From: Sanchytrium tribonematis
Taxonomy: Eukaryota
Length of the DNA: 64,000 nt
NCBI GenBank assembly: GCA_018985235.1
Contig: JADGIG010000007.1
Span: 1 to 64,000 of the forward strand
Reading direction: 5' to 3'
Positions 10,080 to 64,000 of the stretch are shown piece after piece. A program made the translations under genes and the position numbers. Below the pieces are notes generated by a model. That model saw only the letters and a list, made by a program, of their open reading frames with translations. It made no database searches and had not been told where the DNA came from. Within the stretch, counting starts at the first letter, position 1. The number at the start of each line of letters is the position of its first letter.

Positions 10080-10885
10080 TCATTGTAAATTTTGCATTTT
10101 TTCAAGGTCTAATTGTAAATCACTTTTTTTCTGCCGCAGCTGTGTTAATAATTGAAAATCCAAACCACGCTCTTTCATTAATTTTGTTTGCCTATTGTTG
10201 ATCGTGACATTTGAAAGTTCATCATATGAAAATTCTCTACGATATAAAGCAAAAAATAAATAGCCAAAGATTGCTGTACCAAAGCCCAGAAAATAAGCTA
10301 TGGGTTCCATAACATCTAAATTAATAAAAATTTACCCCAAGACAAATCCCAAAAAGTCAGCCTTGCCATAACAAAAAATTGCGCGGTCAATCCTATAAGT
10401 CCGGCCCATACGTATCTATTTGCAGATTTACTGGCTTCCTTGATAATCAAGTCATATTTTTGTTCCAATGGGACCAGCTCCTTCTCTACAGCTGCAATTT
10501 GATTAACTATAGGTAAAGTAAGATCATCCATGCTTGGAAGCGTACAAAAAACCATCGAGGGTCCAACCGGAGTAGTTCCATCCGTTTCTTTTCCGATATA
10601 AAAGCCGCCTTCTTTCATACATTCTTTTAAAACAAATTCCAAGGAAGTTAAAGATGAAAGTATAGTCTTTGTATCAGCCAAATAAATTTGAGGTTTGCTA
10701 TTAGAGTCCATGATGCCGTCTAATTTCAATTTTTCAAAAATAGTAAGGATTGGGTACGTCTTTTTAATTGGATACTGGTATGTTTGATTTGCATTCTTAA
10801 AATTGAAAGTAAATATATTGTCGTTCACAGGTTTTAATTCCAAATTTGAAAACTGTCGTCTGGTTACCCTTAAGAATTGATTCAT
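10080..10885 (-). CDS. MCU: Mitochondrial calcium uniporter; exons 10885-10336 and 10315-10080
   Basis: Splicing restores ARLTFWDLSWDVMEPIAYF (DIME-type pore motif). Confidence 0.92.
10316..10335 (-). other. 20-nt spliceosomal intron (MCU), phase 1
   Basis: gtaaatttttattaatttag; joins SW-D-VMEP. Confidence 0.93.
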
Positions 10886-10918
10886 TTTTAATAATGTTTC
10901 AAAAAATTCAAAATTTAT

Positions 10919-12082
10919 TCAACAATGCATTCCATTTTTCTCGCAAAGCCACGGTGCGATTAATATTGCTGAAAAACCAGCACAAGTGATGCCAAAAGTG
11001 TCAGCTAGTGATACAGCTCCCATTAGAAATTCTTTAACATTTTTAGTTCCAGAACTAGCAGAATTCTGTGAAATATCATCCTCATCAGCCAATACCTCAT
11101 ATTCAAGTACTGGATCAAACTTGAGCAAGCAGGCAAATGCGTTGGCATATGTGGAACCACCCAGGAGACCTTCATATAAAACAAATAGACACACAGGTAT
11201 AAAACCAAAAACTTTGTCTAATGACTGACCAATGAAAAGAAAAACGTTAATAAATTGTAGCCCTGCTAATATAAAAAGATATTTGTGATGTGGAATAGTA
11301 TAAAAAGCTACACTTGATCGGCTTAAGAAGACGCCAACTTGATATAGCATCTGAAAAACAACGTAATAATCACGATTACTTTTAAAAAATGAGTCTTCTG
11401 ATACATCAAAAACAATTGTTGGTAGTATTCCTTGATTTATAACATATTCGGAGTAATAAACTAAAAACAAAGGTAGCATAAAAGGAATCACCGCTTTGGA
11501 AACTATTCTTAATTTATCAGATATTGTCTCCATTTTCATTCCTGTCAGATTTACCGACGAACTTTCGACACTTCCTAAAGATCCTCTTCTTAATCCAAAA
11601 TGGTAAGCGAAGTATAGCAATAATGGAAATGGAGAGATGAGCAACATCGTTTGTGCTTTAGTTAATCTAAAGACCGTAGTTAGTAAAAAATACAAAAAAC
11701 TACCACCAAGTCCCGCCATCCCAGTACCACTAAACCACCCTGTAATGTCCTTTGGAAATTGAGAGCTAAGTGCCAGAAAAGACGCTTCACCAAGTCCTGA
11801 GGAAAAGCTTGCTAAAACAACACCACTCAAACTTGCATCAACATTTGAAAATGTATTGAGCAAAAGAGCTGAAATACTTAAAACAACACATATTCTAAAC
11901 CGCATGTCATAACTCATTTCAATGTAAGGCGATATTGATTTTGAAAATAGTCCCGGTACTATGTCTGCAACTAATACCAGACCTTCTAACCCATGGAATA
12001 TATCTGAGGCAGCACTTAAAAAAATGACGTATATAATATTGTTGATTATCCCACAAATGAAAAACGCTAGAGTGGGCTTCAT
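10919..12082 (-). CDS. BTN1: Battenin CLN3/Btn1
   Basis: FFICGIINN..YVIFLSAA, GWFSGTGMAG, EYVINQG, YQVGVFLSRSS, YEGLLGG. Confidence 0.95.
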   Translation of the reverse strand: MKPTLAFFICGIINNIIYVIFLSAASDIFHGLEGLVLVADIVPGLFSKSISPYIEMSYDMRFRICVVLSISALLLNTFSNVDASLSGVVLASFSSGLGEASFLALSSQFPKDITGWFSGTGMAGLGGSFLYFLLTTVFRLTKAQTMLLISPFPLLLYFAYHFGLRRGSLGSVESSSVNLTGMKMETISDKLRIVSKAVIPFMLPLFLVYYSEYVINQGILPTIVFDVSEDSFFKSNRDYYVVFQMLYQVGVFLSRSSVAFYTIPHHKYLFILAGLQFINVFLFIGQSLDKVFGFIPVCLFVLYEGLLGGSTYANAFACLLKFDPVLEYEVLADEDDISQNSASSGTKNVKEFLMGAVSLADTFGITCAGFSAILIAPWLCEKNGMHC

Positions 12083-12264
12083 TCCAGTCGCTTTGAAACA
12101 AATCACGTTTTTGGAGGGAATCTTTTTTTATACCAATGAGACTATTTTAAATAAATTTTAAGTATCTTAGATTCGAGTTTCCGATAAATTATATAGTCTA
12201 TGACCATTTGGAATTTAAGATTATTATAATAAATGTTTCAGCTAATTCGCTCCAAAGTTTCACA

Positions 12265-12915
12265 ATGGAAATACATATTTCTTCCCAAAATGCCAGTGGA
12301 TGGCACACTTTCTCTCCCAATATGCTTATTTCAGAGTTTCAGCATAGGCTAGAATTAATAACTGGGATAAGAGCTGTGAATCAGACCATAGTGACTGATA
12401 GTCGTCAATTAGCAATTGAGCAAAATCTTGGAGTGATATCTGACATATTTAAAAGCAATCAGCAAATACTTGTCAAAGGCGCAGTTGAATTTGATGAAAA
12501 TGTCGAGAAATATGAAATATCAGATGAGCATTACTCAAAATTGAATGGAACTGTGCAATCTTTTTTAAAAGAAAATAAGTTAGGAAAATACAAAGAGGGA
12601 CAAGAAGTAGAAAACGTGAAAGACTTCTCTGAATTCCAATTGAATTGCAGATGCTTTGTAGAAGGTTTGGAAAAGTATGGCACCATTAGATACTTGGGCA
12701 CATTCCATTTAAAGCCCAACAAAATATTTGTAGGCATCGAATACGATGAGCCAGTTGGTAAACATAATGGCACAGTCGATAAAAAGACATATTTTACTTG
12801 TGCCGAAAAGCACGGCGCTTTGCTAAGGCCTAGCTCTGTACTTTTAGAGATGCCGAATGGATCAAAAATTCCTTCGGCTAATGAGTTATTTGAACGCGAG
12901 CTTGAAGAAATGTAG
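12265..12915 (+). CDS. TBCB: Tubulin-folding cofactor B (UBL + CAP-Gly)
   Basis: RLELITG, VEKYEISDE.Y, GIEYDEPVGKHNG..YF.C. Confidence 0.9.
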   Translation: MEIHISSQNASGWHTFSPNMLISEFQHRLELITGIRAVNQTIVTDSRQLAIEQNLGVISDIFKSNQQILVKGAVEFDENVEKYEISDEHYSKLNGTVQSFLKENKLGKYKEGQEVENVKDFSEFQLNCRCFVEGLEKYGTIRYLGTFHLKPNKIFVGIEYDEPVGKHNGTVDKKTYFTCAEKHGALLRPSSVLLEMPNGSKIPSANELFERELEEM

Positions 12916-12963
12916 CTTCTGAAGTAAATGATTTATTTTCTTTTTAATAATCTCCTAATTGCC

Positions 12964-18210: not shown

Positions 18211-18231
18211 GCTTATTTATATAAATTCATT

Positions 18232-18675: not shown

Positions 18676-18808
18676 TATTGGAATCTATTGATATATGTTT
18701 CAAACACACGTATTTAACTGAGCAACTTTATGGAATCAGTATGCGTGAAATTCTTTTTCATTTGAAAAACAAACAAATAAAATCCCAAAAGGGAAAAATG
18801 GGTCAAAC

Positions 18809-22861: not shown

Positions 22862-22952
22862 GTTATTAAATCCTTAAACTTAAATTTTACTAGTCGTCAA
22901 AAAGGACCAAATTGACTAGTTTTTGAAGATGAAAAAGAGAACAATCATAAAT

Positions 22953-24027
22953 TTATTGTTTCAAACATTCAATAAAATTTGAAAAGAATCTAGTAAAGCC
23001 AGTATCTCTATGCTCATTCAAGCCTCGAAATCTGCGTCTCACAAAAGTATTGATGAGAAGCTGGGAGTCGAACCCATCATTTTGAAACACAGAATACAAC
23101 ATTTCGGCCTCTGCATCTACCAATTCCCTATTTGTGGTAACCTGAAATATATGGACCAAATCGGTTTTTGTTATTTTATCAGAATTTTTACTCTACATGA
23201 ATAAAAAATACTTTTGAAAAAAGTTTAATAGCATAATTAAATTCATCAATATTACTTAGTGCTTCATTAAAAGACAAGAACTCGTCTAATTTCATTTTAA
23301 AATTTGATTCAGGTAGTTTCTGAATTCTTTCACCTAACTCAATTTGTTTGGTTGGATGTGCATAATTAGTTATAATGTAAGCAAAATCTTTTAAATTTAT
23401 AGTCCCATTTTTGCTGTACAAGTCAAATTCTATTTTTAGTAAATCTGATTTAATAGATTTAACAAAGTTTTCAAAATCTCTAAATTTAACAACGTCCGTG
23501 TCACCAAAAAGACTCTTTATCACATCAGTTGGATGAACAGCTTGTTTGGATCCAATTCTCTGAGAAAATCCTGCGCTTTGTCTTGAAAATGTCAAAAGCA
23601 TTTCTTGTAATTCTTCGTCATCTACACCACCAGAATTATTTTTGTCAAACAAATTGAACGCACTTTTTAGACTTCTCAGAGGTATTGTCAATAAAGAAAG
23701 GTAGAATACATATTCGTCAAAACTTATCTTTCCATCTTTGTTTAAGTCTGCCAATAAAAGTGAAGAAGTTTTAGGTATATTAATTTTCGTATTTCTTGTT
23801 ACATGATCCTTACTGTTGTATGGAATTAAAGATCTAACAAAGTCTTCCATAGTCATATATTCGTTATTGAGACTGGCAAAATATTGAAATACTTTTAAAG
23901 GATGGCTGTAGGCTCTAACTCTATTTTCGTAATTTCCGAGTATTTGCTCCCGGTATCCATCGCACTGGACGACAAGTCCACCTAAAGCCAATGCTCCAAA
24001 TCCTTTTCGTAAAATTGGTCGAAACAT
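22953..24027 (-). CDS. MICU1: Mitochondrial calcium uptake protein (EF-hand); exons 24027-23212 and 23192-22953
   Basis: YENRVRAYSHP.KVFQYFAS, MT.EDFVRS, EF hands; spliced C-terminus RGL....DTGFTR. Confidence 0.9.
23193..23211 (-). other. 19-nt intron (MICU1), phase 0
   Basis: gtattttttattcatgtag; joins the two ORFs in frame. Confidence 0.88.
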
Positions 24028-24197: not shown

Positions 24198-27159
24198 ATG
24201 TCTTTTCAACTCAGAGCTCTCACGCGAAAGCAACTGATTCAAGAAAAAAGAAGATGGAAAACAAGTTTATGTTGCGTTGGTTTATGTCCGTTTTTGATGG
24301 TTTTGATCGCAGGTGGAGTAGGTATATTTCTCCAACAATTACTGGCCAGCCAATTGAAATACCAGGAAACCTTGGTATGCTCAAATAGCAATGCTACTGA
24401 TTCCAATGGCTTGTATACCCAGGCTGGTGTGACTTTGGATAAATCAAAAGTTTATGGTGCTACGATCGATGTAATTGCTACAAATTATTACACTGCCCCA
24501 TTTAAATTTTCAAAGAATGGTCCACCAACTGGTGGATCCCAAAGTAGCTGTGTTCGATGGCATACCCAAAATACGCCAGATCAATTCCCTTACAGTAGAC
24601 AAACCAATCAAAGTACATGGTTGGCTGGTGGTGATACATTATTTATACCCGCACCAGCTGGCGGGTGGCTTAATGTTCAGAAATTCGCAAACCAAACCTA
24701 TGCTTTTAAATTGACGCAGTTGCAAACCTATCCTTGGTGGATTGTATCAGGTGATGATCAAGCAAAACTTGGATCAAGAGGTAGCCGACAATATTCGTTT
24801 ACAAATGTATCCGACTTTACAGCAACCAATCCACCTAGTAGAAATGATGCTTCTGGCATTTTTAAAACTATGGGTGAACAGGTTTACATTAATGTTGATA
24901 CGACGAATAAAACCAATCCATTTAGTTATTATGGTGTACCGTTTGCCAAGACAAGCAGTGGAAGTGTTAGCGAGGTAGATGATGCTTTTCAGGCTATCAT
25001 AGCTGATGTACTGGATAAGATCTCCAGAGTTGTAGACAAACCTGACAGTCCAACTTTCCAATCTGATCGATCAATTGCAGACAGAATTAAAATTCAAACA
25101 TCCGCCAACAAGATCGTTCAATCATTACCATGGGGAACTATGATTGTTAATTCTTTTATTCCGAATTCGGTTGTGGATATGGTGCTTCAAGTGGGACATG
25201 ATACGCGAATTGACCAAGCTGCACAGTATACCTCATTAGGACTTCGAAGATTTATGAGTTGGGCTTATGTTGCTCAAGGTGCATTGAAACAAATCGACAA
25301 TTCAGCAGATTTGAATCACGGAATTAGAAACTTTCCGCAATTGGTTAACAACAAAATTGATTTCAATTTTGATTCCTTTTTAGCGGATATCCTATTTCCT
25401 TTTGCTCTTTCCTTTTTGTTCCCTATTTTTGTAGTTACTCTCGTTCGTGAGAAAGAGGACCGTATTGCAATTATGATGAAAATGAATGGGTTAAAGACAA
25501 GCACGTATTATTTCACTCATGCCATCACTTTCTTCATTTTGCATGTTTTGGCATGCGTCGTCTTCACGGTGACTGGTATTGCATTTCGACTAAAGTTTTT
25601 TGTTAATACTGACCCTGGTGTTTATATCTTGTTGTTCTTATTTTGGGGTCTCGTTCAAATTGCAATGGCATTTTTCTTTGCAACAATTTTCGATAAAAGT
25701 CGTCTAAGTCTGATTGTTTCTTTCTTCACCGTGTTGGTTAATATTATTATTAGCTTGGCTTTGGATAGATTGCAAGTCAACGGATACAATACGTTCTTTT
25801 TTATATGGCCACCATTTGCATTTTATAGAGCACTATCGTTGATAAATGCTGGGAGCTACGATTCAGATCTCACTCCTTATACGCTTGCTAATGCAAATCC
25901 CCCTGACAATGTTGGGCTGGCCTTGATTGCATTGAGCTTAGAAACCATTGCTTATATATTTATGGCTTATTATGCAAGTCAAGTTCTCCCATCAGAATTT
26001 GGAACTCAGAAACCTTGGTATTTTCCTTTCGAGTATCTGAAAAATAAAATGAAGAAGAATTCAACCACGGAGGAGGGTACATATACTGCGATAGAAATTG
26101 ATGATAAGGAGTTAACCCAAGAAGACAATGACGTCAAAAATGAAAGAGCGAGAATTGATAAGGGTGAATATGATCCTGAATGTCCACTAATCGTCAAACA
26201 TATGAGAAAGGTTTATCCGAATGGAAAGCTTGCTGTGCGCGATGTCACTTTCGCTGTTGAAAAGAACAGCATTATGGGATTACTTGGGCCAAATGGTGCA
26301 GGAAAAAGTACTTTAATAAGCATTTTAACTGGACTTTATCCACCCAGTCATGGTCAAGCCAAATTAGGCGGCTTTGACATTCACACAGAACAAGACAAGG
26401 TCTTTCAAGTTACTGGTATTTGCCCACAACATGATATATTGTGGCCTGATCTTACGGTGGAAGAACATCTTTACTTTTATGCTAGATTAAAGGGAGTTCC
26501 ACCAGCTAAGGAAAAGGAAGCTGTTACGACTGCTATTGAAAGTGTGAAACTAGCAGCTTTTACCAAAAGACAAAGTGGTGGACTTAGTGGTGGCGAAAAG
26601 CGTAGGTTGAGTATCGCCATTAGTCTGATTGGAGACCCTAGAATTATATTTCTAGATGAGCCAACAACTGGTATATAATTTTTACTTAGGACTGGATCCA
26701 GAAGTTAGAAGAATTATTTGGGATATCATTAGTAAAGCAAGACACGGTAGAACTGTCATTTTAACAACTCACAGTATGGAAGAAGCGGAAAGTCTTTGTC
26801 AAAGAATTGGGATCATGGCAAATGGTAGTATGAGATGTATTGGTGCTCAAGCCAGATTAAAGCAGCAATATGGTAGTGGGTTCCGTATTACATTCAGTAT
26901 GAAAGCGGAGCACCATACTGAAGCTACTGAATTTGTCAAGTCGCTTTTAAAAGAAACGGGATTTCAAATTTTAGATGATTTTGACACATTATGCAATTAC
27001 GAGTTTCCATATTCTCCCGGGATTGTTAGTCATCTTTTTGAGAAAATGGGTGATTCCAAAGAGCATTTCATAGTGGATTGGGGAATTAGTCAAACCAGTC
27101 TTGAGGATGTCTTTCTTCGAATCGTAAAAGAAAGCGACGCAGCAGCTTATGCAGATTAA
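24198..27159 (+). CDS. ABCA-family half transporter (980 aa); exons 24198-26670 and 26690-27159
   Basis: LVREKE..MKMNGL, GPNGAGKST, CPQHDILW, LSGGEKRRL; spliced DEPTTGLDP; LTTHSMEEAE. Confidence 0.93.
26671..26689 (+). other. 19-nt intron (ABCA), phase 1
   Basis: gtatataatttttacttag; restores DEPTT-G-LDP. Confidence 0.96.
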
Positions 27160-28649: not shown

Positions 28650-28935
<286 letters not shown>

Positions 28936-28952
28936 ACGTTTATAAATCTATT

Positions 28953-29237
28953 TTAATTTCGTAATTGTTCATAGTTAGAGTCCATATAGTCTTCTTTAAA
29001 TATTTTAAACAATGATGTGATGACTAAAATTGTTGTTAGAATTATGAACGTACTAATTATAATTTCATCTTTAAGGCTTTCCCTATGAAAACATTCGCCC
29101 ATTAGCTGAGGAATGTCGGTATTGTTTTGAAAATGGTTACAATCTGGCTGTTGTAAACATAGCATCTTGTCACAGCTGTCACAATTATGAACTGGAACCG
29201 TCACAGTTTTTGGGAAACATGTACATAAACAATGCAT
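28953..29237 (-). CDS. Small Cys-rich membrane protein of a conserved fungal uncharacterised type
   Basis: CxCxC, C..C...C, CFHRES.KD followed by a transmembrane segment. Confidence 0.7.
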   Translation of the reverse strand: MHCLCTCFPKTVTVPVHNCDSCDKMLCLQQPDCNHFQNNTDIPQLMGECFHRESLKDEIIISTFIILTTILVITSLFKIFKEDYMDSNYEQLRN

Positions 29238-29259
29238 TTCAAGGAGTCAATTGAAGAAT

Positions 29260-29523
29260 TTATTTTAATTTCTCGTACAATGCAAATATGTAACCATTTT
29301 TCTTGGCAATATGTATCGGTTGGTCACCAAAAATGGAAACGCTTAAAGTGCTACTATTTTTTACCAAGGCCGAACTTGCGTGCATAATAGACGAGATAAA
29401 TGGAGCACTTGGATTAGGTATTGATTTCGACTGATAGATTATGTGGCCATCGTCATCACAAATTAAAACACTCTGTGATTGCTGTTCATATTCTTTTGCC
29501 AATTGCGTAATGTCAGGTTTCAT
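29260..29523 (-). CDS. Roadblock-fold protein, LAMTOR5-like (Ragulator)
   Basis: 87 aa; VLICDDDG, A.FIS.I, I.K.NG...A pattern resembling LAMTOR5. Confidence 0.55.
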   Translation of the reverse strand: MKPDITQLAKEYEQQSQSVLICDDDGHIIYQSKSIPNPSAPFISSIMHASSALVKNSSTLSVSIFGDQPIHIAKKNGYIFALYEKLK

Positions 29524-29646
29524 CCATAAAATAATTTAAAATCTAGAGGAACCTTAATTAAGCACTCATTTTTTCCAGGATTTTAAAATTGACAAGAATT
29601 TCTGAAATGAATAAAATATGCATTTATCATTGGAAAATTTTTTGGC

Positions 29647-29652
29647 CACGTG
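29647..29652. promoter_or_regulatory. E-box CACGTG upstream of SAH1
   Basis: CCACGTGT about 36 bp upstream of ATG 29688. Confidence 0.35.
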
Positions 29653-29687
29653 TTTTGATATATCTTGAGCGCGAATCACTCCTTGAA

Positions 29688-31011
29688 ATGGCAAATCAAA
29701 CTTATAAAGTCAAAGATATTAACCAATGGGAATATGGTCGAAAAGAAATCGAAATCGCAGAAAACGAAATGCCTGGTTTAATGGCAATCCGAAATAAGTA
29801 TGCTAAAGAACAACCTCTGAAAGGAGCAAGAATTGCGGGATGTCTTCATATGACCATCCAAACAGCAGTCTTAATTGAAACTTTAGTTGCCCTGGGTGCT
29901 GAGGTCACTTGGTCCTCATGTAACATTTACTCCACGCAAGACCATGCTGCTGCTGCAATCGCTAAGACAGGAGTACCAGTTTTTGCTTGGAAAGGTGAAA
30001 CCGATGAAGAGTACTTGTGGTGTATTGAACAATCTTTGCTTTCATTTAAGGATGGTAAGCCTCTCAATATGATCTTGGATGATGGTGGGGATTTGACCCA
30101 ATTGGTTCACGACAAATATCCTCAATTAATGAAGGACGTTAAAGGTGTATCTGAAGAAACCACAACTGGTGTACACAACTTGTACAAGATGTTTAAAAAG
30201 GGTCAATTAAGATGTCCTGCTATAAATGTTAATGACTCTGTCACAAAAAGCAAATTTGACAATCTTTATGGCTGTCGTGAGTCTTTGATTGATGGGATCA
30301 AAAGAGCCACTGATGTCATGATTGCTGGTAAAACAGCCGTTGTTGCTGGATATGGTGATGTTGGAAAAGGATGCGCAATGGCCTTGAGAGGTATGGGTGC
30401 TAGAGTTCTTATTACTGAAATCGATCCGATTAATGCATTGCAAGCAGCTATGGAAGGATATAAGATCATGACTATGGAGGAAGCTGTTAAAGAAGCTCAA
30501 ATTGTTGTAACAACTACTGTATCTATTAATAATTTAGGGGTGTAGAGATATTGTCACTGCTAAGCACTTTGAAGCTTTGCAAGACGACTCAATTGTCTGC
30601 AACATTGGGCATTTTGATATTGAAATCGATGTCGCATGGTTGAAAAAGAATGCTAAATCAGTTTCTAATATTAAACCGCAAGTTGATCGATACACTCTAG
30701 CCAACGGAAAGAGAATCATTTTACTTGCTGACGGAAGACTTGTTAATCTCGGATGTGCCACTGGACATCCATCTTTTGTCATGTCAAATTCATTTTGCAA
30801 TCAAGTTCTTGCTCAAATTGCATTATGGAAAGCGCAACCTGGAGATTATGCTATTGGAGTGCATGTCTTACCAAAACATTTGGATGAAGAGGTTGCTAGA
30901 TTGCATTTGGAGAAATTGGGAATGAAATTGACAAAATTGTCTGATGTACAAGCTGAATACTTGGGAATCCCTCAAGAAGGCCCTTACAAGCCAGATCACT
31001 ATAGATATTAG
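29688..31011 (+). CDS. SAH1: S-adenosylhomocysteine hydrolase; exons 29688-30518 and 30538-31011
   Basis: [30 protein letters not shown], spliced VTTTGCRD, C-terminal PYKPDHYRY. Confidence 0.98.
30519..30537 (+). other. 19-nt intron (SAH1), phase 0
   Basis: gtatctattaataatttag; restores VTTT|GCRDI. Confidence 0.96.
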
Positions 31012-31802: not shown

Positions 31803-32604
31803 TTAATTTTTCCGCTTCTTTTTGATAATACCCATTTCTAGTTGCAACTCGTATTCATCTTCCTTCTTTCCTATCCTTGAACTAAATTAAAAGAAATTAC
31901 CTTCTGGCTTCCTCCCGCTTAATATCTTCTGCTGTGGCCTCCATATCGTCTAAATCATCATCAGAAAAATAGCTGTAGTTTCTCTTACGCCCATATAAAC
32001 CCTGAACTATATCAGTTATGCTTTCTTCATTGTTTGGGGAAGGTGACATATCAGTATCATTGTGATTTTCATGCTGTTTTTTCGACGAGGTATCTTTATA
32101 AATTTGAGTCTTCGTTGGTCTGTCTTTAAAAGCGTAATCAACTTGAGGAGGAATCCTTTTTTCGATGTCCCTATTAGGATTCACTTTTTGCTCTATTTTT
32201 TTCTTGTTCAAAATGGTCTTTTCTTTTAGTATTTCATCATAATGGTCATCCTCGTCTGGTATTGACTGCAAAATTTCTTTGGGCTTGGGTGGAGGGAGGT
32301 ATTCCCCTTTTTCCAATTTCCGCTCTAATTCTTTCTTGTCAACAATATGAAAAGACTCAATCGGCTGACTTAGATTTGAGTTTCCTTTAAGCGCCTCCAT
32401 TAGCTGCTTATCTGTCTCGCTCAATGTAGGTGGTTTAGCTCTTCGAATTTTCGGTTTATTACTTAATTCACCTTTTTCCTTTCTTGGTGGTATATTTACT
32501 GATTTCTTCTTTTGGGGCTGTTGGATCGGCACTTTTTCCTGCTTAATATTTGAAAAGAGTCCATTCATTCTATTCTTGAAGTTTTTCAGTTGATTTGAAG
32601 ACAT
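31803..32604 (-). CDS. SPT2: Spt2-like chromatin protein; exons 32604-31901 and 31881-31803
   Basis: Spliced C-terminus DDMEATAEDIKREEARSSRIGKKEDE. Confidence 0.75.
31882..31900 (-). other. 19-nt intron (SPT2), phase 2
   Basis: gtaatttcttttaatttag; restores EEAR-S-SRIG. Confidence 0.88.
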
Positions 32605-35389: not shown

Positions 35390-35939
35390 TTACATCAAAT
35401 GGCAGCAGCTATTGGTTTTTTGAGCTTGTTTATAAAAAGTCTTTGATGTGTTTGACAGAACCTCCGATTTGGTTACCAAATCGTCTAATCTACGTAAATT
35501 TTAAATACTTTTGGCCTCTTTCAAGAACTGAATTTATAGTGTCATGTAAAACAACTTTAGTCTCATCCAACTCTTTTTGCACTCCTAATAATTGATCTAC
35601 TTGCTCTGGTTTCTGGTATTCTTTCAGAAGTGCCTCAATTTGACTCGCTGTCAAGGCTTTTGTAAGCAAATGATATGCCACTCTTGATGGATAGGACTGA
35701 TCTGTAATGCATACAGCCACATCTCCAGATTGACAATAACAATGGATCATGTAAGTGTCTTGCTTCACGGATTGTCTCTGGCCAGGTAGGGTCCTGTCAG
35801 CAATAGTTTTCGCAGCAAAATTCATAAATTCTTGAACACTTGATCTTTGAAAGTAAGAAAAATCATAGAGGTCGAATGCAGATTGCTTCACTTTGCAGTC
35901 TGGTTTTGGAGAAAATGTTATCACACCATATAATTTCAT
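35390..35939 (-). CDS. YKT6: R-SNARE Ykt6; exons 35939-35509 and 35489-35390
   Basis: [17 protein letters not shown], spliced LERGQKLDDLV...KTNSCCHLM. Confidence 0.97.
35490..35508 (-). other. 19-nt intron (YKT6), phase 2
   Basis: gtatttaaaatttacgtag; restores RGQ-K-LDDLV and the CCAAX tail. Confidence 0.96.
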
Positions 35940-39141: not shown

Positions 39142-41474
39142 TTATTCTTCTAATTTTCCATTCATGCAAACGCAATCGCAACCAACTACCGCACAGCTCT
39201 TGTGATGGGCAAACCATTCCATCAAATGATTATAATGTCCCCCGTGTCTACCTAAATTATTAAACATATACAGAGTTGACACCAAACGTAAAATTGGTCG
39301 GTGCTCAGCCCCATCGAATTTGTGTCGACTGGCAAGGAACACAAGCTGCAAAGTGGCAATGATTGCCCGCAATTAGAACAAGCCCCAAACCGTATAGGGT
39401 GTCCCACTTGCTGCTGACGCTGGCCAAAAAATCTACTAGTATTTCTCATAAATTGGTTTGTAGAAAGCAAAGAAAGACCACAAAATTGACATTTCAAGTG
39501 AACCTTACTGGCTTTTACACTCTCAGGATATTTAGCACCATAAATGATATCAAATGAGGCTCTTTGATCATAAAGCTCCCATTTGTTTAAGAAAGACCTA
39601 TATTTCTCAATCCAAGACTTGCAAATATCTAAATGGCTCGATGGTATAGAATCTACTTGGAGACAAGCTAAAACAACAGTTTGCAAATCGCCTGTGTAGT
39701 CCACATAATTCTGAAATAAACGAAATGCATCTTCTGAACTAGTACCCGTCAGAAATAATCCAAATAGACTACCCTGCTGTATTTTCAGTTCTGTTTCTCG
39801 TTTTAGATAAAGATTTAAACTTTCATTGTCGAGATATCTCATTGCAATGTAAATTTTGTCAACTAAAGGTAAATTAGGTATATCAAGCACCGGTATCCAA
39901 TTAAATTCATACAAGAAAATCAACATTGCTTTCAGAAAAGGACAAGACGCTCTATCTGCCAAAACTTTAAGATTGGCTGAAGCTGGGCTTTTTAGCGAGT
40001 AGCCTAATATGACAGTCCCAATCAATTGCAAATTAGAGTCATTGCTATTTATCAAACAGTTTGTGCATGAATATAAATCACTGGCAAAAAAGTATCGCGC
40101 AGCGGCCTCTGCGATTCTTCCATGATCAACCAGTTCTTCGAGAGACTTGGAAAAAAGAGTTTCTGTATCTGGATAGCCCAAAAACAAAAGCGCTCTTAGT
40201 CTTACAGATGATGTAATGATATTATCAAATGGAGCATCCAACAAAGTTAATTCTTCATCATTGGCATCCTGGCTTGATTGCATCATTCCAATTAATCCAC
40301 TGTTGATATATTTAAATTCGTCCAAATCTTTCATCGATGATAGATAGGCCATCCAATTCCAGAAATGGACTACTTGGCTATCGCTAGATCCAAAAATTGG
40401 ATGAGAATACATACCGATATCATTCTCTTTATTCATAATACGGGCGTTAATCATAGCACTAGGCCCGTATCCAGACACTGCTCTTTCTTTCATGACTAAT
40501 TGAATATCTTTAATTTCATTTTCAATCAAAAATTTTGTCATTGATGTCGGACATATTGCTTGAGACGATTTAAATGAACAAACTAAGGGTTCTTGATCCC
40601 AGCTGATTTTTTGGACAAGTTCATATTCATTGGCGAGGGACAATTTTTTCTCACAAATAAATAATGGATGCTTGGATGAAATTTTGGAAACACCAAAACT
40701 GAAAGACAATATTGTAGAATTTTTGTGTTTTTCTTCGTAAGATTGATAAAGCTTGAGAATGGGCTCATTGTCAACTCTGTGAATGTCCCAGAATTTCATT
40801 GATTTTGTGTCTTTTGAAAGGGCTCCTACTATAGAACTTCTGCTTTTCGAGTAATCCATTTTTACACAGTTTCTAAAATTTAAAGAATACACTTCTTGTA
40901 ATGGATTACGGATATCCCATATTTTAATTGCATCGTCATTTCGACTCATAAATCCAAAATCACAAAACGGATCTTTTTGAATACCAAAACATGCTTTTGT
41001 CGAGTAGGTTACAGCTGGATCGTCTTTTCTTGTATCGTAAATTCTAACAAACTTGTTATTTAGACCAGATATGATAACGCTTGCATCTCTCCATGCTGCC
41101 GAGCAACAGTGGTCAGATATCCCAAATTCGAATTCTTTTAAACCATCATACGTCGATACCACAACACTCGGCTCATTGCGACTTCTTTCAAAAGCGATCA
41201 CCAATTTCCCGTTTAAGTCAACTGTGGATATAGGGCGTGGTGTGCCCGAAATAGCTTTTATCATTTCAAATTTTTTGGACAGATCATATATCATCACCGT
41301 TCCATTACTTAATCCTGTTGCAAATATGTTTTCAGTAAGAGCTGTTGTTCTTGTCAAGGCGTGCAACGGGTAAGATGATATTTTTGCCTCATTTTGATAT
41401 TGATCCAACCTATGAGAAGATACTACAAAAACGGAATCATCAGTACAATGCAGATTTAATTTCCTGTAGTTCAT
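39142..41474 (-). CDS. MIOS: GATOR2/SEA subunit Mios/Sea4; exons 41474-39272 and 39251-39142
   Basis: WD40 N-terminus, MKERA..GY, YVD.TGDLQT, LP.CSLC, spliced WCQLCRHGGH..H..EWF. Confidence 0.93.
39252..39271 (-). other. 20-nt intron (MIOS), phase 1
   Basis: gtatatgtttaataatttag; restores WCQL-C-RHGGH. Confidence 0.95.
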
Positions 41475-41832
41475 GGTTTCAAAAATTCAAAATTGTGATC
41501 CTTTAAAATTGGCACTTTTCCTCACTAATTCTAGTTGCCAATGTAATTTTAACCCGTGGTTCCTGTATAGTATCAATAGATCACTGAATCAAATTAAAAC
41601 CTAGAAAAAACGACGTAATGCCACAACAGCATAGATAGGTTTTCAATTATTTAATAATTAATTTAGAGTAAATAAATCGACAGTGAGGCTATTGCTACAA
41701 AAAAATCTGAAGTATAAAATACAGTTCTTTGGAGCAATTATAGGAATTTAATAAGAAAGCGTCAGCTGATTGGCTCCTACGCTTATTGGTTTTATTTCAA
41801 TTGAAGGGACCAAAACAACCAAAAAAACAAAT

Positions 41833-46430: not shown

Positions 46431-47547
46431 ATGCCAAGTGAGATAAAGTCTGTCTTGATTACGGGAGGAACTGGCTTTGTAGGCCGACACTTAGTAGATT
46501 ATCTATTAGACTCAGGAATTACTGATATCAAAGTAGTTGACAAGTCATTACCTTCATTGTCTTGGCTAAATGAAAAACACAAATCTGCCTTGGGCAAAGT
46601 GCAGTTCGTTCAAGCAAATTTATGTTTAGACAGCGGCGTAGCAAAAGTTTTTGATAAAAGTTACGATTTGGTTGTAAACTTAGCCTCGGAAACTAAATAT
46701 GGCCAATCAGAAGAAATTTATAAAGAAAAAGTCCTTGATGTGGCTCTGAGAATAGCTAATGCAGCCGTCGGAAAGACGAAGGTATTTGTAGAGCTTTCTA
46801 CCGGACAGGTTTATGACCCAAAAGACAAGCCGGTAAAGGAAAGTGGAAAAACTAAACCTTGGACAAAATTAGCAGAGTACAAATTACAAACCGAACAAGA
46901 GCTCTCCAAATTAGACTTAAATTTAGTGATTTTAAGACCAGCCATTATCTATGGTGTTGCTGATATTTATGGAATTACTCCCAGACTCATTATTGGTAAA
47001 GTCTATCAGCACATCAAGGAAACTATGGAATTGTTATGGACTGGTGATTTGGCAATCAACACGGTTCATGTTACTGATGTTGTCCGTGCTATTTTGTTCA
47101 CAGCCAGATACCACATGCAGAAATTAGCAAAGGGAGAAATTTACAATTTAGCAGACAAAAGTAATTCTACGCAAGAAACTATTAATGCTCTATTGCAAAA
47201 TATTTTCGGTATTAAAACTTCGTTTGTTGGATCTGTTGCTTCTCAGTTCGCTAAATTGAATTTGACTACTGTTGTTCAAGATGTGAACGAAAAACACATG
47301 GCACCATGGAGTGAATTGTTGAAGAAGGAAGATTTAAACAGTTTTTAATTTTCATTTAGGTCATCTGACTCCATATTTGGATAAGGAGCTGCTTTATAAC
47401 CACAGTTTATCTATTGACGGGTCAAAAATTGAAGACTTGAAATTGGATGGGGAATCATTTAAACTTAAGCATCCAAACATCAATGAGGCGTTACTTAAAG
47501 AAGTTGTGGATGACTTTAAACAATGCAAATTATGGCCAAGTGCTTAG
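46431..47547 (+). CDS. NAD-dependent epimerase/dehydratase family protein; exons 46431-47340 and 47360-47547
   Basis: TGGTGFVG, LRPAIIYG, VHVTDV; spliced LTPYLDKELL...SIDGSKI. Confidence 0.88.
47341..47359 (+). other. 19-nt intron (epimerase), phase 1, GTT donor
   Basis: gtttttaattttcatttag; extends the ORF by about 60 codons. Confidence 0.85.
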
Positions 47548-48904: not shown

Positions 48905-49844
48905 ATGGCAACTTCGCAAACAATCGAAGTAATTGAAGTCGCATTTTCCGGAGGCCAAGGCAGAGATGGAGTCGAGTTTGGACCAGAGACACTTATTAAT
49001 CATGGTTTGTTAAATCAACTAAAAGGTCTTGGTTACAACGTTCAACACAATAAGTCTTTTAAAAATATTCCTAAACCCGAAAACGATCCAATTGTTGCTG
49101 GCTGTAAAAATTCAAAGTATGTATCCGCTGCAAACAAGAGTCTTTTCTCTGCTGTTAAACAAGCTTGTGAAGTTCATAAAACTACACTTGTAATCGGCGG
49201 AGACCATTCACTTGCTATAGGCTCAATTGCAGGCTCCGCAGCAGTTTATCCTGATATCTGTGTTATTTGGGTTGATGCACATGCTGATATTAATACTCCA
49301 GATACCAGTGGTAGTGGGAATCTACATGGGTGTCCATTGTCCTTCTTATTAAAGCTGCCATCTACGGAAAAAGTACCAGAATTGAGTTGGGTCCCAAAAT
49401 GTTTATCTCCAGACCGACTGGTGTATATTGGACTCAGAGATGTAGATGAAGGCGAAAGAAAAATTTTAAAAGAGCACAAAATCAAGGCTTTTAGCATGCA
49501 TGATGTTGACAAATATGGCATAGGAAGAGTTGTTGAAATGGCATTGGACCACGTCAATCCGAAAAGGGATCTTCCTATTCATATGTCGTATGATGTGGAT
49601 GCTTTAGACCCTACAGTAGCGCCAGCAACTGGTATATCTAATTTATTTAGGAACACCTGTAAGAGGTGGTTTGACTTTCCGCGAGGGTCACTATATAGCA
49701 GAGGCTATAGCAGAAACCGGGAAATTAGTTGTAATGGACATCATGGAAGTCAATCCAATTTTGGCAATTCAAAAAACCGACGAACCTACCGCGACTGTAG
49801 CTTGTTCTTTAATTCGAGCGGCATTTGGTGAAACGTTGCTTTGA
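48905..49844 (+). CDS. CAR1: Arginase; exons 48905-49631 and 49651-49844
   Basis: GGDHS, DAHADIN, GNLHGCP, SYDVDALDP; spliced ATGTPVRGGL..REG, EVNP. Confidence 0.97.
49632..49650 (+). other. 19-nt intron (arginase), phase 1
   Basis: gtatatctaatttatttag; restores AT-G-TPVRGG. Confidence 0.96.
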
Positions 49845-51755: not shown

Positions 51756-51813
51756 TCTAAAAATAATTTACTCTATAATTAAAACTTCAATAAAAATCAT
51801 TATCAAACAAGGG

Positions 51814-52251: not shown

Positions 52252-52262
52252 GAAACCCTGAT

Positions 52263-53624: not shown

Positions 53625-53633
53625 ACATAAAAT

Positions 53634-54191: not shown

Positions 54192-54220
54192 TGAAGTTGG
54201 TGTTTTAAAGTGCCAATTTA

Positions 54221-54818
54221 TTACAAAATAATGCATTTTTTCTGGGCCTTCGCTTTTTGTGGAGGAGCAAGAACAGCACGGATAGCTAAATTAATAACAA
54301 GTACCTTCATCAAAGACGTTTTTTAATCCTTTTTGGGTAAGAGCAGAGCACTCCAAATATTTAACACTTCCTATTTCTTTTGCCATTTGAAGCCCTTGTG
54401 GGTATGTAATTGGAGACATTCTTTTCTCTCTCAACTTTTCAATTGTCTCTCTATCTTCTCTCAAATCCAGCTTAGTTCCTACTAGAATAATAGGGACTCC
54501 AGGTGCATGATGAGATATTTCAGGATACCATTTGGTTCGAACATTTTCAAATGATGGGGGACTGACCAGTGAAAAACATATCAAAAACACATCTGTTTGA
54601 GGATAAGACAATGGCCGTAGACGATCATAATCTTCCTGACCAGCAGTATCCCATAATCCCAAATTAATCGGTTTTCCGTCAACCATCACATTAGCTGAGT
54701 AGTTATCAAAAACCGTAGGAATATACTCTCCTGGAAACGCATTTGTAGTATATGAAATTAATAAGCAGGTCTTTCCAACAGCTCCATCTCCAACAACAAC
54801 ACATTTTATAGCTTGCAT
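54221..54818 (-). CDS. RAC1: Rac GTPase, full length 192 aa; exons 54818-54305 and 54285-54221
   Basis: [46 protein letters not shown]; spliced tail KKCIIL. Confidence 0.98.
54286..54304 (-). other. 19-nt intron (Rac), phase 1
   Basis: gtacttgttattaatttag; restores FDE-A-IRAVL and the CAAX box. Confidence 0.96.
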
Positions 54819-54960
54819 TTTATGAAGACTGGTGTTTCAGATTATTTTGGAGAAATTTTCTACTCTCTATATGATAAAAAATGTTCTCTTTTTGGCTGAT
54901 TAATAAGAATTTGAATTATTTAAATTCGATCATAATCTTTTTTTTGAAATTCTTTTGTCC

Positions 54961-55972
54961 ATGTTTCGCCCTGATGAGATTCTTAATCAATTTTTATCCA
55001 ATACAGGTCAGATAACTAGCGACTGGGTCCTTCCAAGCTTTGGAGCTATTCCTAAAAAGACTCTACATACTCCTGATGATATAAATAAATGGAGCAAGAG
55101 TAAAGGCCTTGGCTTATTATTGACAACCTTATTACAATTTACTGATTCTGTTGAAGGTGTGACTGAAATACCTGCTAAATTATCGGAAGAAACTAAAATT
55201 ATTCTTGACTTCTTCCACAAGATTAATTTGATGACTTTAAAATTGGGAAATCAAGTAGAATCAAGCGACGACATCAGATTTGGGAATCCAAAGGTGATGG
55301 ATCTTTACAAATGGATTTATGACAACACTCCGGTACATTTAAACAGTTTATCTACTGTTAAAACAGCATTAAAAGAGGAACTATTTTATTATTTCAATAA
55401 TTCATTTGGTTCATCTCGATTAGACTTTGGAAGTGGTCATGAACTTTCTTTTTTGGCATTTATGACTATTATTTATAAATCAAACGAAAACGCAGACTTT
55501 TCACGCGAGCTTGTTCTTGTGATTTACTCGCAATACATCACTCTGATCCGCGGCATCATTAAAATATTTCATTTAGAGCCTGCAGGTACTACTATCTTAA
55601 TTAGGGAGTCATGGAGTGTGGGGAGTTGATGATTATTACTTATTACCATACTTATTAGGTGCCTCACAATTATGCAACTCAAGGCTAAAGCCATCGGATA
55701 TCCACAATCCCGAAATTTTATCACATTTTCAAACTAAAGATACAAAATTATATTTATATTTCGATGCTATAAGATATATAAAGAGTAACAAAACTGGACC
55801 ATTTTTCGAGCATTCGCCCATGCTCAATGATATTTCAAATTCAAAAAATTGGGTCAAGGTAAGACAGGGAATGTTGCGCTGGTATATCATGGAATGCTGC
55901 ACTAAATTTGTAGTTGTACAACACTTCTTCATGGGTCAAATTTTTACTCTCGAAGAATATGTGCGAAAGTAA
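54961..55972 (+). CDS. PTPA: PP2A activator PTPA (Rrd1/2); exons 54961-55585 and 55605-55972
   Basis: RFGNP, RLDFGSGHEL, spliced LEPAGSHGVWGVDDY, K.GPFFEHSP.L, KF.VVQHF. Confidence 0.95.
55586..55604 (+). other. 19-nt intron (PTPA), phase 1
   Basis: gtactactatcttaattag; restores EPA-G-SHGVW. Confidence 0.96.
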
Positions 55973-56024
55973 ATTGGTTTTGTACTTTTTGTGATGTGAA
56001 CTTTTTAAGGAGTAAACACAAAAT

Positions 56025-56591: not shown

Positions 56592-56631
56592 TAGTATTTA
56601 TAGACACTCAATAATAAATTCAGTGCAATTG

Positions 56632-57363: not shown

Positions 57364-57398
57364 ATTTAATATATAGCAGTAATTTCAAGGAGTTGCAA

Positions 57399-59313: not shown

Positions 59314-59316
59314 TTA

Positions 59317-60003: not shown

Positions 60004-60018
60004 GGAGGTTTTCAAAAT

Positions 60019-61881: not shown

Positions 61882-61925
61882 AAATTTAAAGGTCACGTCG
61901 CTAAAAAGTTACAGTTTATTTTGAT

Positions 61926-64000
61926 TCAATTGGCCGACCCTGGAGTTCTAAGCTCTATCACACAGTCATCGGATATAGTTTCAGGAAGTAAAGGAATATC
62001 TTTAGACTCAAAAATTTTGTCAAAATTTTCAATCAAGAATGTCACAAAGTCATTTGGCTGATTGTCGAAAAAATTGTTAGGATCGTCCTTGAGCTTTATA
62101 AGTGTTGGCCCAAAAACAATGCCGATATTCCTAGGATTCATTTTATTATATTCTTCAAAAGAAGCTACCCTAAATTAGATCAATTTACCTTTGCAGATGT
62201 TGAATAAGGTAGTATAATGTATAGTAATGAGATGGTAGTAATTTTTTAATGGAATTTTTAAAAAAGATTAACGAATCATCGGAAGGTTTAGGTTCCTTGA
62301 GAATATATACTGTTGTTTCATATATGTCTGTAGAAATAAGTGGGATTTTCAAATCTCGGAAATAAGCTTTTAAAAGAGACGATACTGAAAGAACGTCGAT
62401 GAGATCATGCGCCATGTCAATGGTGTTACCTTGTTCCCACTCATCTTGCATATTCTTCATTTCCTTCATCGCACCAGCCCTTCGATAAATTCCCTCAGTT
62501 TTTAAACCTTTTTCATCAACAACTCTCAAACAAGCAGTTACAATATTAGGAATTGGTTTGCCCTCGAAGTCCGCTCTTTCTTGCAAAAATCCACCGAAGA
62601 GGACAACTTTTTGTTTCTTTAACTTAGCAATAGCCAAGCCTTTCAATTGTTTTGCACGCAAAGATCCCTCCATGAGTCTTAAAGTTTTAGCTCTGTTAAT
62701 ATCTTGTGGTTGATCGTCTTCATCTTGTTTTTGCTTTTTGATAAGATTATTTGCTTTGTCTCTCCAAAACTCTTTCTTGCCTTTATCTTCAGCTAAATTA
62801 CTGTTTGAAACATTCTCGAGACTTTCCCTAGAGCCTTTGGCGTCTATATCATGTTCTCTTGGTGATTCAGGACTTGTTGGTTGCTGAAATTTTTCAGATT
62901 TTTTAGCTGTACTTACTACTTCATTTTGTCTGAACTTACAGACTTCGTATTCCTTTACTTTTTCACGAATTTCTGTCAGAATTGTGGCTTTGTCGGCAAT
63001 CAAGGATTTAATTTCGCTAGTTAAAGTATTTTTTTGCTCTTCCAATGGTGCCAGTAACGATAACAATTTCGCTATTTCGGAGTCGGATGCGATAACTCCA
63101 TTTTCAGCTCTCTTTCTCAACATTTCTTGTAAGACTTTACACTGCTTCTCAGACTGATTTCTCAAATTTTCCTCATATTTAGAGTCAGATTTTTGTTTTT
63201 CAAGTTCTGAAAGCTTGACATGCAATTCACCAATGAGTAGCTCATATTTGAGCTTCAAATTATTGTAATCGGAGGACTTGTCTTCTTTTTCTTTAGCTAT
63301 AATTTCATGTTGTTTTTTTATTCCACTGATATTTATTTCCAACGACCTTAATTTCTCCAAGTCAAACCTATGCTCTTCTCTTTCTTTATCCAAATCTTTT
63401 ACTACTTTAATAAATTCGTTGTCCAAAGTTGATAATTGCATTTGAAGCCTAGAGACTTTTTCTAATTGGATTTGTAAGGATATTTCTAAATCTTTCTTTG
63501 ATTGAGTTAATTGCTTGAGTTCTTTGCCAATTTCTGAATTAAAAGAACTCAGTTGCTGTTTCGTTTTGGTTTCTGACTCGGCAGTGTTTTTAAATCCCGA
63601 TAATTGTAGTTCATAAGAATGAATTATTTGTCTTGATTCATCAAGTTGTTTTTCAACTTGAATTTTAGACTGTCTTACCAACATTAATTCATCTTTTAGC
63701 TCTTGCAACTGGTCTTCCAAGTAGGATTTAGTTTGCTGAAGTTCTGAAAATTCCTCAATTGTGCAAGAATTTTTTTTCAATTCATCAAGATGATACAATG
63801 CTTCTCTGTATCGAACTTTCTCTAATTCCATGCTATGTTTATAATGATCGAAATCCTCTAAAGCCTTACGACTCAAGTCTTTCAATTTTTTCAGCTGTTC
63901 TTGGAGCTCTATATTCAAGGCTTGTGATTTTTGAAGTTCTTTTTTAGCATGTTCGTGCTCCTCATTGCGAGATTGCTTCGGAACCTCTGTTGTTTTAAGA
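61926..64000 (-). CDS. Coiled-coil RhoGAP, 5' end outside the window; last exons >64000-62189 and 62169-61926
   Basis: IP.IV..C, GL.TEGIYR, SLLKAYFRDL; spliced HLQRV....NKMNPRNIGIVFGPTL. Confidence 0.92.
62170..62188 (-). other. 19-nt intron (RhoGAP), phase 2
   Basis: gtaaattgatctaatttag; restores HLQ-R-VASF. Confidence 0.95.

What the first reader, a model, noticed from the sequence alone, without database searches (positions are those of the whole stretch)
10316..62188. Fixed-length 19(-20)-nt spliceosomal introns in a fungus-like nuclear genome
Seen: 17 frame breaks are each repaired by removing a GT..AG segment. 15 are exactly 19 nt (23193, 26671, 28849, 30519, 31219, 31882, 35490, 38662, 44325, 47341, 49632, 54286, 55586, 58807, 62170) and 2 are 20 nt (10316, 39252). 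Most removals restore a highly conserved motif (DEPTTGLDP, KLTDFG, EPAGSHGVW, ATGTPVRGG, WCQLCRHGGH, SWDVMEP). I found no longer intron. Known: introns this short are described from chlorarachniophyte nucleomorphs (about 18-21 nt) and heterotrich ciliates (15-16 nt); typical fungal introns are several times longer. Inference: this lineage independently evolved a length-measuring, miniaturised spliceosome. I cannot check whether this is already reported for this organism.
Basis: partly seen in the sequence, partly recalled or inferred. Interest (0 to 1): 0.92.

Follow-up and report, generated by a model that had tools for sequence, protein, structure and literature searches.

The report
Nineteen-base introns in sanchytrid fungi
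Genes of this alga-parasitising fungus are interrupted by 19-20-base segments that are very likely true introns (no RNA was available to prove it), shorter than any fungal intron class in the papers read, and, against the usual fungal pattern, all sit within about 500 bases of the gene's end.

Summary
Confirmed. All 17 segments are GT..AG of 19 or 20 nt. Two are one intron in duplicated Rac genes, so 16 are independent (14 x 19, 2 x 20). Removing them rejoins Pfam profiles exactly in 8 genes and gives the best homology score in 4 of 4 alternative-length tests. All 16 have A at -6 and T at -8, a likely branch site. SAH1 groups the window with Amoeboradix gromovi (SH-aLRT 99): a sanchytrid fungus. 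Intron-blind ORFs of relatives decode to 19-nt introns at 5 sites, and to at least 21 and 22 nt at 2 more: narrow, not strictly fixed. New: all 16 lie 65-488 nt before the stop codon (p about 6e-5), the reverse of the fungal 5' bias. A miniaturised spliceosome is not shown: Amoeboradix keeps core U1, U2, U5 and U2AF proteins; Slu7 and Prp18 were not found (weak test). No RNA data. My searches found no paper on sanchytrid introns. This scan earlier noted a 26-31-nt regime in Rozella, on other DNA.

The parts
10316..10335 (-). 20-nt intron, phase 1, MCU gene
   Evidence: Pfam MCU 117 | 119 across the junction
23193..23211 (-). 19-nt intron, phase 0, MICU1-like gene
   Evidence: both exons match MICU1 chains, contiguous within about 2 residues; downstream match weak, E about 0.01
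26671..26689 (+). 19-nt intron, phase 1, ABCA-type transporter
   Evidence: ABC_tran ends at the last residue of exon 1; DEPTT-G-LDP restored
28849..28867 (+). 19-nt intron in the shortened second Rac copy; same intron as 54286, not independent
   Evidence: inverted repeat; contigs of X1
30519..30537 (+). 19-nt intron, phase 0, SAH1
   Evidence: AdoHcyase_NAD 86 | 87; best of 26 variants; same site in P0121, P0002, P0122
31219..31237 (-). 19-nt intron, phase 1, VAP (MSP-domain) gene
   Evidence: frame repair and motif only; 16, 22 and 25 nt also open the frame; leave-one-out motif score low
31882..31900 (-). 19-nt intron, phase 2, SPT2 gene
   Evidence: frame repair and motif; downstream exon gave no Pfam hit
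35490..35508 (-). 19-nt intron, phase 2, YKT6
   Evidence: Synaptobrevin 31 | 33; best of 17 variants; same break in P0143, P0144, P0145, absent in P0146
38662..38680 (+). 19-nt intron, phase 2, zinc-finger-like gene
   Evidence: frame repair and motif only; Pfam hits weak
39252..39271 (-). 20-nt intron, phase 1, MIOS/Sea4
   Evidence: best of 37 variants against 109 homologs, 134.6 vs 126.9 bits
44325..44343 (-). 19-nt intron, phase 1, PAK/Ste20-type kinase
   Evidence: Pkinase 139 | 141
47341..47359 (+). 19-nt intron, phase 1, NAD-dependent epimerase-family gene; only donor that is GTT
   Evidence: frame repair and motif only
49632..49650 (+). 19-nt intron, phase 1, arginase
   Evidence: Arginase 222 | 224
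54286..54304 (-). 19-nt intron, phase 1, Rac-type GTPase
   Evidence: frame repair to VFDE-A-IRAVL (seen in the twin copy); Ras profile to 154 of 162 in exon 1, exon 2 too short to hit
55586..55604 (+). 19-nt intron, phase 1, PTPA
   Evidence: PTPA 180 | 182; best of 27 variants; same site in P0124, P0125
58807..58825 (+). 19-nt intron, phase 1, VID27; only acceptor that is AAG
   Evidence: VID27 184 at residue 196 of 200, then 190 at residue 1: exact fit
62170..62188 (-). 19-nt intron, phase 2, RhoGAP gene
   Evidence: RhoGAP 119 | 121

Best explanation
These 19-20-base GT..AG segments interrupt conserved genes of a sanchytrid fungus and are very likely U2-type introns, removed by a largely complete spliceosome that is predicted to branch at the invariant A six bases from the end and to take the AG right behind it. 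Shown: boundaries, lengths, the donor GTAWNT-like consensus, T at -8 and A at -6, no pyrimidine tract between that A and the AG, exact repair of the proteins, same-site breaks in relatives, one intron per gene at most, all within 488 nt of the stop. Inferred: a 14-nt lariat loop with a 5-nt tail; 3' splice-site choice by proximity to the branch, not by scanning; 19 nt as the steric floor of this spliceosome, reached by deletion pressure in a genome with 48-nt median spacers, rather than an active ruler. For the 3' confinement I favour (about 50%) functional coupling of the last intron with 3'-end formation, so that only introns within reach of the poly(A) site are kept; that step is untested.
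For: Exact Pfam contiguity in 8 genes: MCU, YKT6, arginase, RhoGAP; kinase, VID27, PTPA, SAH1. These are all the genes with a usable hit of one family on both exons, apart from MIOS, whose exon-1 hit was weak and stopped short. Reported intron is the top-scoring of 26, 27, 17 and 37 open-frame alternatives for SAH1, PTPA, YKT6 and MIOS. Read-through tails and heads of relatives' ORFs decode to 19 nt: P0121 (10 of 10 motif residues), P0125 (8 of 8), P0143 and P0146 5' site (8 of 8 each), P0002 (2 of 2); the three window controls gave 19 as well. A(-6) and T(-8) in 16 of 16, and compatible in all 7 decodable relatives. Stentor has the same branch-A-plus-5-nt-tail layout (PMC9505925). Core spliceosome genes are annotated in Amoeboradix. 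3' confinement: 15 of 16 in the 3' half (p 2.6e-4); mean distance to stop 267 vs 625 nt expected, p 6e-5; 0 introns in 34 kb of coding DNA more than 500 nt from a stop, 9.3 expected; no missed 5' intron among 41 motif-candidate rows.
Against: No transcript was examined, so splicing, the branch point and splicing efficiency are all inferred. Four introns (31219, 31882, 38662, 47341) rest on frame repair and motif alone. Relatives were read from protein sequences only, not DNA, and I chose the allowed motif residues partly after seeing them. P0122 and P0144 need at least 21 and 22 nt, and could be longer; P0124, P0143 (3' site) and P0145 give no length. The branch A in the two 20-nt introns is ambiguous (A at both 14 and 15). 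Stop-free 18- or 21-nt introns would not break a frame; none scored 12 bits or more, but that cut-off recovers only 14 of 16 known introns. One 64-kb window, 16 introns. The 488-nt limit is post hoc. Amoeboradix YKT6 appears to hold two introns, so 'last intron only' is not a rule in the lineage.
Confidence: 0.78

Rival explanations
1. True ruler: the spliceosome actively measures about 19 nt from the donor (or 14 nt donor to branch) and cannot splice longer introns.
For: 14 of 16 are exactly 19 nt and none exceeds 20; intron interiors differ freely between orthologues while length holds at 19 in 5 decodable relatives.
Against: Two 20-nt introns here; at least 21 and 22 nt in P0122 and P0144. 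A floor plus deletion bias predicts the same one-sided spread.
Confidence: 0.3
2. The 3' confinement is mutational: internally primed (self-primed) reverse transcription erased every intron upstream of the priming zone and spared the last few hundred bases.
For: Self-primed reverse transcription is proposed for internal intron loss that spares 3'-terminal introns in fungi (PMC2395259 passages). Intron presence differs among relatives' YKT6 genes, so loss or gain has occurred within the lineage.
Against: Such models usually leave 5'-end introns too, and fungi keep introns near the start codon (PMC8476143). None was found near a start here.
Confidence: 0.3
3. Not introns: sequencing or assembly frameshifts, pseudogenes, or programmed ribosomal frameshifts with a few extra residues.
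For: No RNA in hand. One real assembly fault probably exists in the window (shortened Rac copy).
Against: Same-site breaks with different interiors in relatives. Profiles rejoin with no extra residue. 9 of 16 carry an in-frame stop. GT, AG, A(-6), T(-8) invariant. Hosts are single-copy housekeeping genes. No indel against X1 contigs over 39 kb (X1 may be the source, so not independent).
Confidence: 0.03

Closest known systems
Stentor coeruleus 15-16-nt introns (PMC9505925; passages)
   Same: GTA donor, AU-rich, branch A at -6 with a 5-nt tail, one dominant length plus a +1 class, most spliceosome parts kept.
   Different: Ciliate, not a fungus; 10-11-nt lariat loop against 14-15 here; no 3' confinement mentioned in the passages read.
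Mikrocytos mackini and P. canceri (name as abbreviated in the passages) 16-17-nt introns (PMC10245619; passages)
   Same: Parasite with a compact gene set; one dominant length plus a +1 class; few introns.
   Different: Rhizarian; strongly reduced spliceosome (17-19 proteins), whereas Amoeboradix keeps U1, U2AF and SF1 proteins.
Bigelowiella natans nucleomorph 18-21-nt introns (PMC6009652; passages)
   Same: Same size range, GT-AG, AU-rich.
   Different: No discernible branch A there; about 3 introns per gene against 0.27 per kb here; endosymbiont nucleus.
Microsporidian (about 25 nt) and Rozella (about 30 nt) short introns (PMC6349667; passages)
   Same: Reduced holomycotan parasites with short GT-AG introns.
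   Different: Longer. Encephalitozoon introns have an extreme 5' bias, the opposite of this window. Sanchytrids are sister to Blastocladiomycota (PMC8371127), so the shortening is a separate event (inference).
Myxobolid and dicyemid introns, median 22-27 nt (PMC13644364; two of three parts of the text read)
   Same: Opisthokont parasites; donor reduced to GTa; no pyrimidine tract.
   Different: Animals; broader lengths; weak A run instead of one fixed A.
Fixed branch-point-to-AG distance in Yarrowia, Trichomonas, Giardia (PMC2483917; passages)
   Same: Branch site anchored at a set distance from the AG, no pyrimidine tract, intron-poor genome.
   Different: Those keep a long consensus branch motif and variable or long introns; here the motif is only T-N-A and the whole intron is 19-20 nt.

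Membership tests
U2-type spliceosomal intron | GT..AG boundaries | tested here: met
   17 of 17
U2-type spliceosomal intron | Removal restores the conserved reading frame without loss or gain of residues | tested here: met
   exact in 8 Pfam pairs; top variant in 4 of 4; 4 of 16 introns have no homology test
U2-type spliceosomal intron | Branch-point adenosine near the 3' end | tested here: met
   A(-6) and T(-8) in 16 of 16; sequence evidence only, lariat not mapped
U2-type spliceosomal intron | Segment is absent from mature mRNA | not testable with these tools
U2-type spliceosomal intron | Organism encodes a major spliceosome | tested here: inconclusive
   core proteins annotated in the relative Amoeboradix and U1-70K in Sanchytrium; own genome not held; no snRNA in the window; snRNAs not searched elsewhere
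U12-type (minor) intron | Extended ATATCCTT/GTATCCTT donor and long branch motif (motif recalled) | tested here: not met
   donors are GTATTT, GTATAT, GTAAAT and the like
Ultra-short intron regimes (heterotrich, mikrocytid, nucleomorph) | Genome-wide length confined to a 2-4-nt range under 22 nt | tested here: inconclusive
   met in one window (16 of 16 at 19-20 nt); relatives 19 in 5 cases, at least 21 and 22 in 2; no genome-wide count
Reduced-spliceosome lineages (microsporidia, mikrocytids) | Loss of most spliceosomal proteins | tested here: not met
   name and id look-ups in the Amoeboradix annotation found U1-70K, U1A/U2B'', U2AF35, U2AF65-type, SF1, SF3B1, Prp8, SNRNP40, Prp22, Cwc25, Isy1; not found: U1-C, Slu7, Prp18, Yju2, the name Prp16. 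Tested in a relative, not a full inventory.
Sanchytriomycota | Groups with Amoeboradix gromovi in phylogeny | tested here: met
   SAH1 clade of 5 rows, SH-aLRT 99, quick tree of one gene, 31 rows; Amoeboradix is the best named hit for PTPA (46%) and YKT6 (85%)

The most novel reading that the evidence does not exclude
Sanchytrids have the shortest intron regime in Fungi and in opisthokonts, and their spliceosome is loaded from the 3' end: having dropped the 3'-splice-site docking factors Slu7 and Prp18, it can only define a 19-nt intron with help from the cleavage and polyadenylation machinery, so introns survive only within about 500 nt of the mRNA end.
Probability: 0.2. Interest if true: 0.9.

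Novelty: new variant of a known kind. Interest (0 to 1): 0.74.

Why it matters
1. It adds an independent origin of sub-20-nt introns, in Fungi, close to the best-studied spliceosomes. The fungal records in the papers read are about 25 nt (Encephalitozoon) and about 30 nt (Rozella). This makes the question of a minimal intron length testable by comparison with yeast structures. 2. The confinement to the last 500 nt reverses the 5' bias that is the textbook sign of reverse-transcriptase intron loss in fungi. If it holds genome-wide it points to a link between splicing and 3'-end formation or to an unusual loss mechanism. 3. The published sanchytrid proteomes were called with TransDecoder on genomic contigs (PMC8371127). 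Three of three Amoeboradix proteins examined here are cut at such introns. In the window 16 of 50 genes carry one, so gene-content work on this phylum rests on many truncated models.

Tried and rejected
Whole genome: none held, so no genome-wide histogram or snRNA search. RNA: no RNA holder listed; this is no evidence either way. Rfam and tRNA scans of the window: 0 hits. Metagenome pattern scan for a 10-40-nt intron at the SAH1 site: 0 matches. Metagenome scan with P0002: 598 relatives, best 80 kept, best identity 78%, none close enough to be a sanchytrid; loci not analysed further. MIOS search: 149 homologs, no close relative (best 36%); 109 with the motif intact were used, 8 with variant motifs and 32 without the motif in the last 160 residues were left out. 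Loose gene-finder settings produced spurious long introns. A 15-25-nt prior produced extra calls inside open frames or at gene ends; these lacked the motif or were not needed to open a frame and were dropped. A forced 20-nt call at 1362 lies inside an unbroken 617-codon PP2C frame and was dropped. In one search the script picked the wrong phase for 54286; phase 1 was taken from its twin. Adjacent same-strand ORFs at 6983/7015 and 51755/51814 were checked by eye and by motif: no intron joins them. The careful SAH1 tree did not finish; only the quick tree is used. U12-type, frameshifting and pseudogene readings rejected as above.
Full report
Observation. All 17 reported segments exist and read GT..AG on their gene's strand: 15 of 19 nt, 2 of 20 nt. 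The window is 34.6% GC and gene-dense: 50 full genes, 58.7 kb coding, median spacer 48 nt. The segments at 28849 and 54286 are one intron in two inverted, near-identical Rac-type genes. In run X1 a 570-nt contig spans the whole gene, its flanks join the first copy, and it differs from the second copy at 4 places; the window's first copy lacks the middle. I read this as an assembly collapse. Sixteen introns are independent: 14 of 19 nt, 2 of 20 nt, 0.27 per kb.

More than chance. A gene finder with a flat length prior from 10 to 300 nt and no splice motif beyond GT/AG hit 12 reported introns exactly among 17 calls, and 12 among 18 at a second setting; most other calls shared one boundary. Looser settings added many long spurious calls (39 and 28 in all), with 19 still the mode. 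A donor and acceptor matrix, blind to length, found at 12 bits 16 segments of 19 nt, 2 of 20 nt, and none of 18 or 21-23 nt; the two 19-mers not already reported lie antisense to genes; leave-one-out recovery was 14 of 16. The matrix was trained on these introns, so this tests for missed introns, not for the reality of the known ones.

Protein evidence. With exon-only references, Pfam profiles end and resume with exactly the junction codon between them in MCU (117|119), YKT6 (31|33), arginase (222|224), RhoGAP (119|121), kinase (139|141), PTPA (180|182), SAH1 (86|87, phase 0) and VID27. Against profiles of homologs, the reported intron beat every other GT/GC..AG of 10-150 nt that opens the frame: SAH1 885 vs 866 bits (26 variants), PTPA 148 vs 124 (27), YKT6 227 vs 207 (17), MIOS 135 vs 127 (37). 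MICU1 exons match solved chains nearly end to end. The ABC and Rac junctions restore known motifs. Four introns (31219, 31882, 38662, 47341) have no homology test.

Organism. The closest SAH1 cluster holds Amoeboradix gromovi protein P0121. In a quick one-gene tree of 31 rows the window, P0121 and three unnamed ENA proteins form a clade with SH-aLRT 99. Amoeboradix is also the best named hit for PTPA (46% identity) and YKT6 (85%). The window is therefore a sanchytrid but not that species; I did not determine the genus. Its GC fits the roughly 35% of published sanchytrid genomes (PMC8371127). Sanchytrids parasitise algae and are sister to Blastocladiomycota (same paper).

Relatives. No relative's DNA could be fetched. 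But relatives' ORFs were called without introns, so their ends read through the intron and can be decoded. The method returned 19 for the three window controls. It returned 19 for P0121 (10 of 10 downstream motif residues), P0125 (8 of 8), P0002 (2 of 2), and for a 5' YKT6 intron that the window lacks, in P0143 and P0146 (8 of 8 each). P0122 and P0144 allow no length below 21 and 22 nt; those lengths fit the T(-8)/A(-6) motif, but longer is possible. P0124, P0145 and the 3' site of P0143 break at the same codon without giving a length. P0003, P0004 and P0146 are uninterrupted at one of the sites. So of 10 relative sites, 5 give 19, 2 give 21-22 or more, 3 are silent. I set the allowed residues partly after seeing the sequences.

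Anatomy. Donor GTA in 15 of 16, T at +6 in 14 of 16; interior 90% A+T; T at -8 and A at -6 in 16 of 16; acceptor TAG in 14, CAG 1, AAG 1; phases 2, 10, 4 for 0, 1, 2; an in-frame stop inside 9 of 16. T-N-A matches the core of the usual branch motif (established knowledge). Stentor's 15-nt introns have the same A at -6 and 5-nt tail (PMC9505925).

Position. All 16 introns end 65-488 nt before the stop codon and no gene has more than one; 15 of 16 are in the 3' half. Given the host genes' lengths the mean distance is 267 nt against 625 expected (p 6e-5); 34 kb of coding DNA further than 500 nt from a stop holds none, where 9.3 are expected. A 19-nt intron always shifts the frame, so it cannot hide in the long unbroken ORFs. 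None of 41 weaker motif-candidate rows in or just upstream of genes gave a credible extra 5' exon, and starts such as RPL11, Rac and YKT6 look complete. The relatives' 5' YKT6 intron is also only about 430 coding nt from the stop. Fungi generally lose 3' introns and keep those near the start (PMC8476143); Encephalitozoon is an extreme case (PMC6349667).

Mechanism. Most likely a U2-type spliceosome reads the GTA donor, pairs U2 with the T-N-A site, forms a 14-nt lariat loop and ligates at the AG five bases on. In yeast, step 2 proceeds without Slu7 and Prp18 when branch and AG are 7 nt apart (PMC3683925 passages), so proximity alone can pick this acceptor. The supplement of PMC8371127 (file 4; the Amoeboradix sheet appears complete, the Sanchytrium sheet is cut near its start; two larger files and a scanned PDF could not be read) lists U1-70K, U1A/U2B'', both U2AF subunits, SF1, SF3B1, Prp8, Prp22, Cwc25, Isy1, Y14, Mago, Upf1 and Upf2. 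Slu7, Prp18, U1-C, Yju2 and the name Prp16 were not found. That is a weak negative: the ids were recalled, the annotation is intron-blind and covers half the proteins. Length is best read as a floor plus deletion pressure; an active ruler is not excluded. For the 3' confinement I favour coupling with 3'-end formation (terminal-exon definition; recalled knowledge, no paper read) over self-primed reverse transcription (PMC2395259); neither is tested.

Novelty. Ultra-short introns are a known kind: heterotrichs 15-16, mikrocytids 16-17, nucleomorphs 18-21, myxozoans 22-27, microsporidia about 25 nt. Library searches 'sanchytri + intron + genome' (9 papers), 'Amoeboradix + intron' (9), 'Sanchytrium + splic' (5), 'Sanchytriomycota + genome' (29, 27 listed) and two searches on tiny introns showed no title or abstract start on sanchytrid introns. 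In PMC8371127 and PMC10459994 the word intron occurs only in a reference title; in PMC9730499 only for Blastocladiella. The other listed papers were seen as listings only. Subscription journals, database annotations and the unread supplements were not covered. What I saw of each cited paper: passages for PMC8371127 (plus supplement look-ups), PMC10459994, PMC10245619, PMC9505925, PMC8476143, PMC6009652, PMC6349667, PMC2483917, PMC2395259, PMC9730499, PMC3683925; parts 1-2 of 3 for PMC13644364. Earlier notes of this scan describe 26-31-nt introns in Rozella, none in sanchytrids.

Verdict. A real feature: about 93% that these are spliced introns. New variant of a known kind: a new lineage, the shortest fungal size class I could find, a clear fixed branch A, and a reversed positional bias. 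Interest 0.74.

Noticed in passing
window 28653-28905 (+) and 54248-54821 (-): Two near-identical Rac-type GTPase genes in inverted orientation 25 kb apart. The first copy lacks about 320 nt in the window but appears full length in X1 contigs: probable assembly collapse; gene conversion or a recent duplication would explain the identity.
   Followed up: partly
window 29688-31011 and 54961-55972; P0121, P0124: SAH1 and PTPA lie 24 kb apart here and on one 12.6-kb contig in Amoeboradix (same NODE label): conserved linkage with rearrangement.
   Followed up: no
P0143, P0146 (N-termini) vs window 35390-35939: YKT6 intron turnover among sanchytrids: window has the 3' intron only, P0146 the 5' intron only, Amoeboradix both.
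   Followed up: partly
PMC8371127 supplement file 4, NODE_116 p11 and p12: Amoeboradix SF1/BBP is annotated as two adjacent ORFs, as expected if an unannotated intron splits it.
   Followed up: no
window 10080-10885 and 22953-24027: MCU and MICU1-like genes, both parts of the mitochondrial calcium uniporter, lie 12 kb apart; many fungi lack this pair (recalled).
   Followed up: no
window 25610-25664 and 34454-34553: Short alternative contigs of X1 differ by 5 and 8 substitutions: alleles, a second strain or paralogues.
   Followed up: no
window 1157-1180, 41475-41832, 28936-29687: Two convergent genes overlap by 24 nt; the largest spacers are 358 nt and the stretch behind the shortened Rac copy, which holds short ORFs without Pfam hits.
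   Followed up: no
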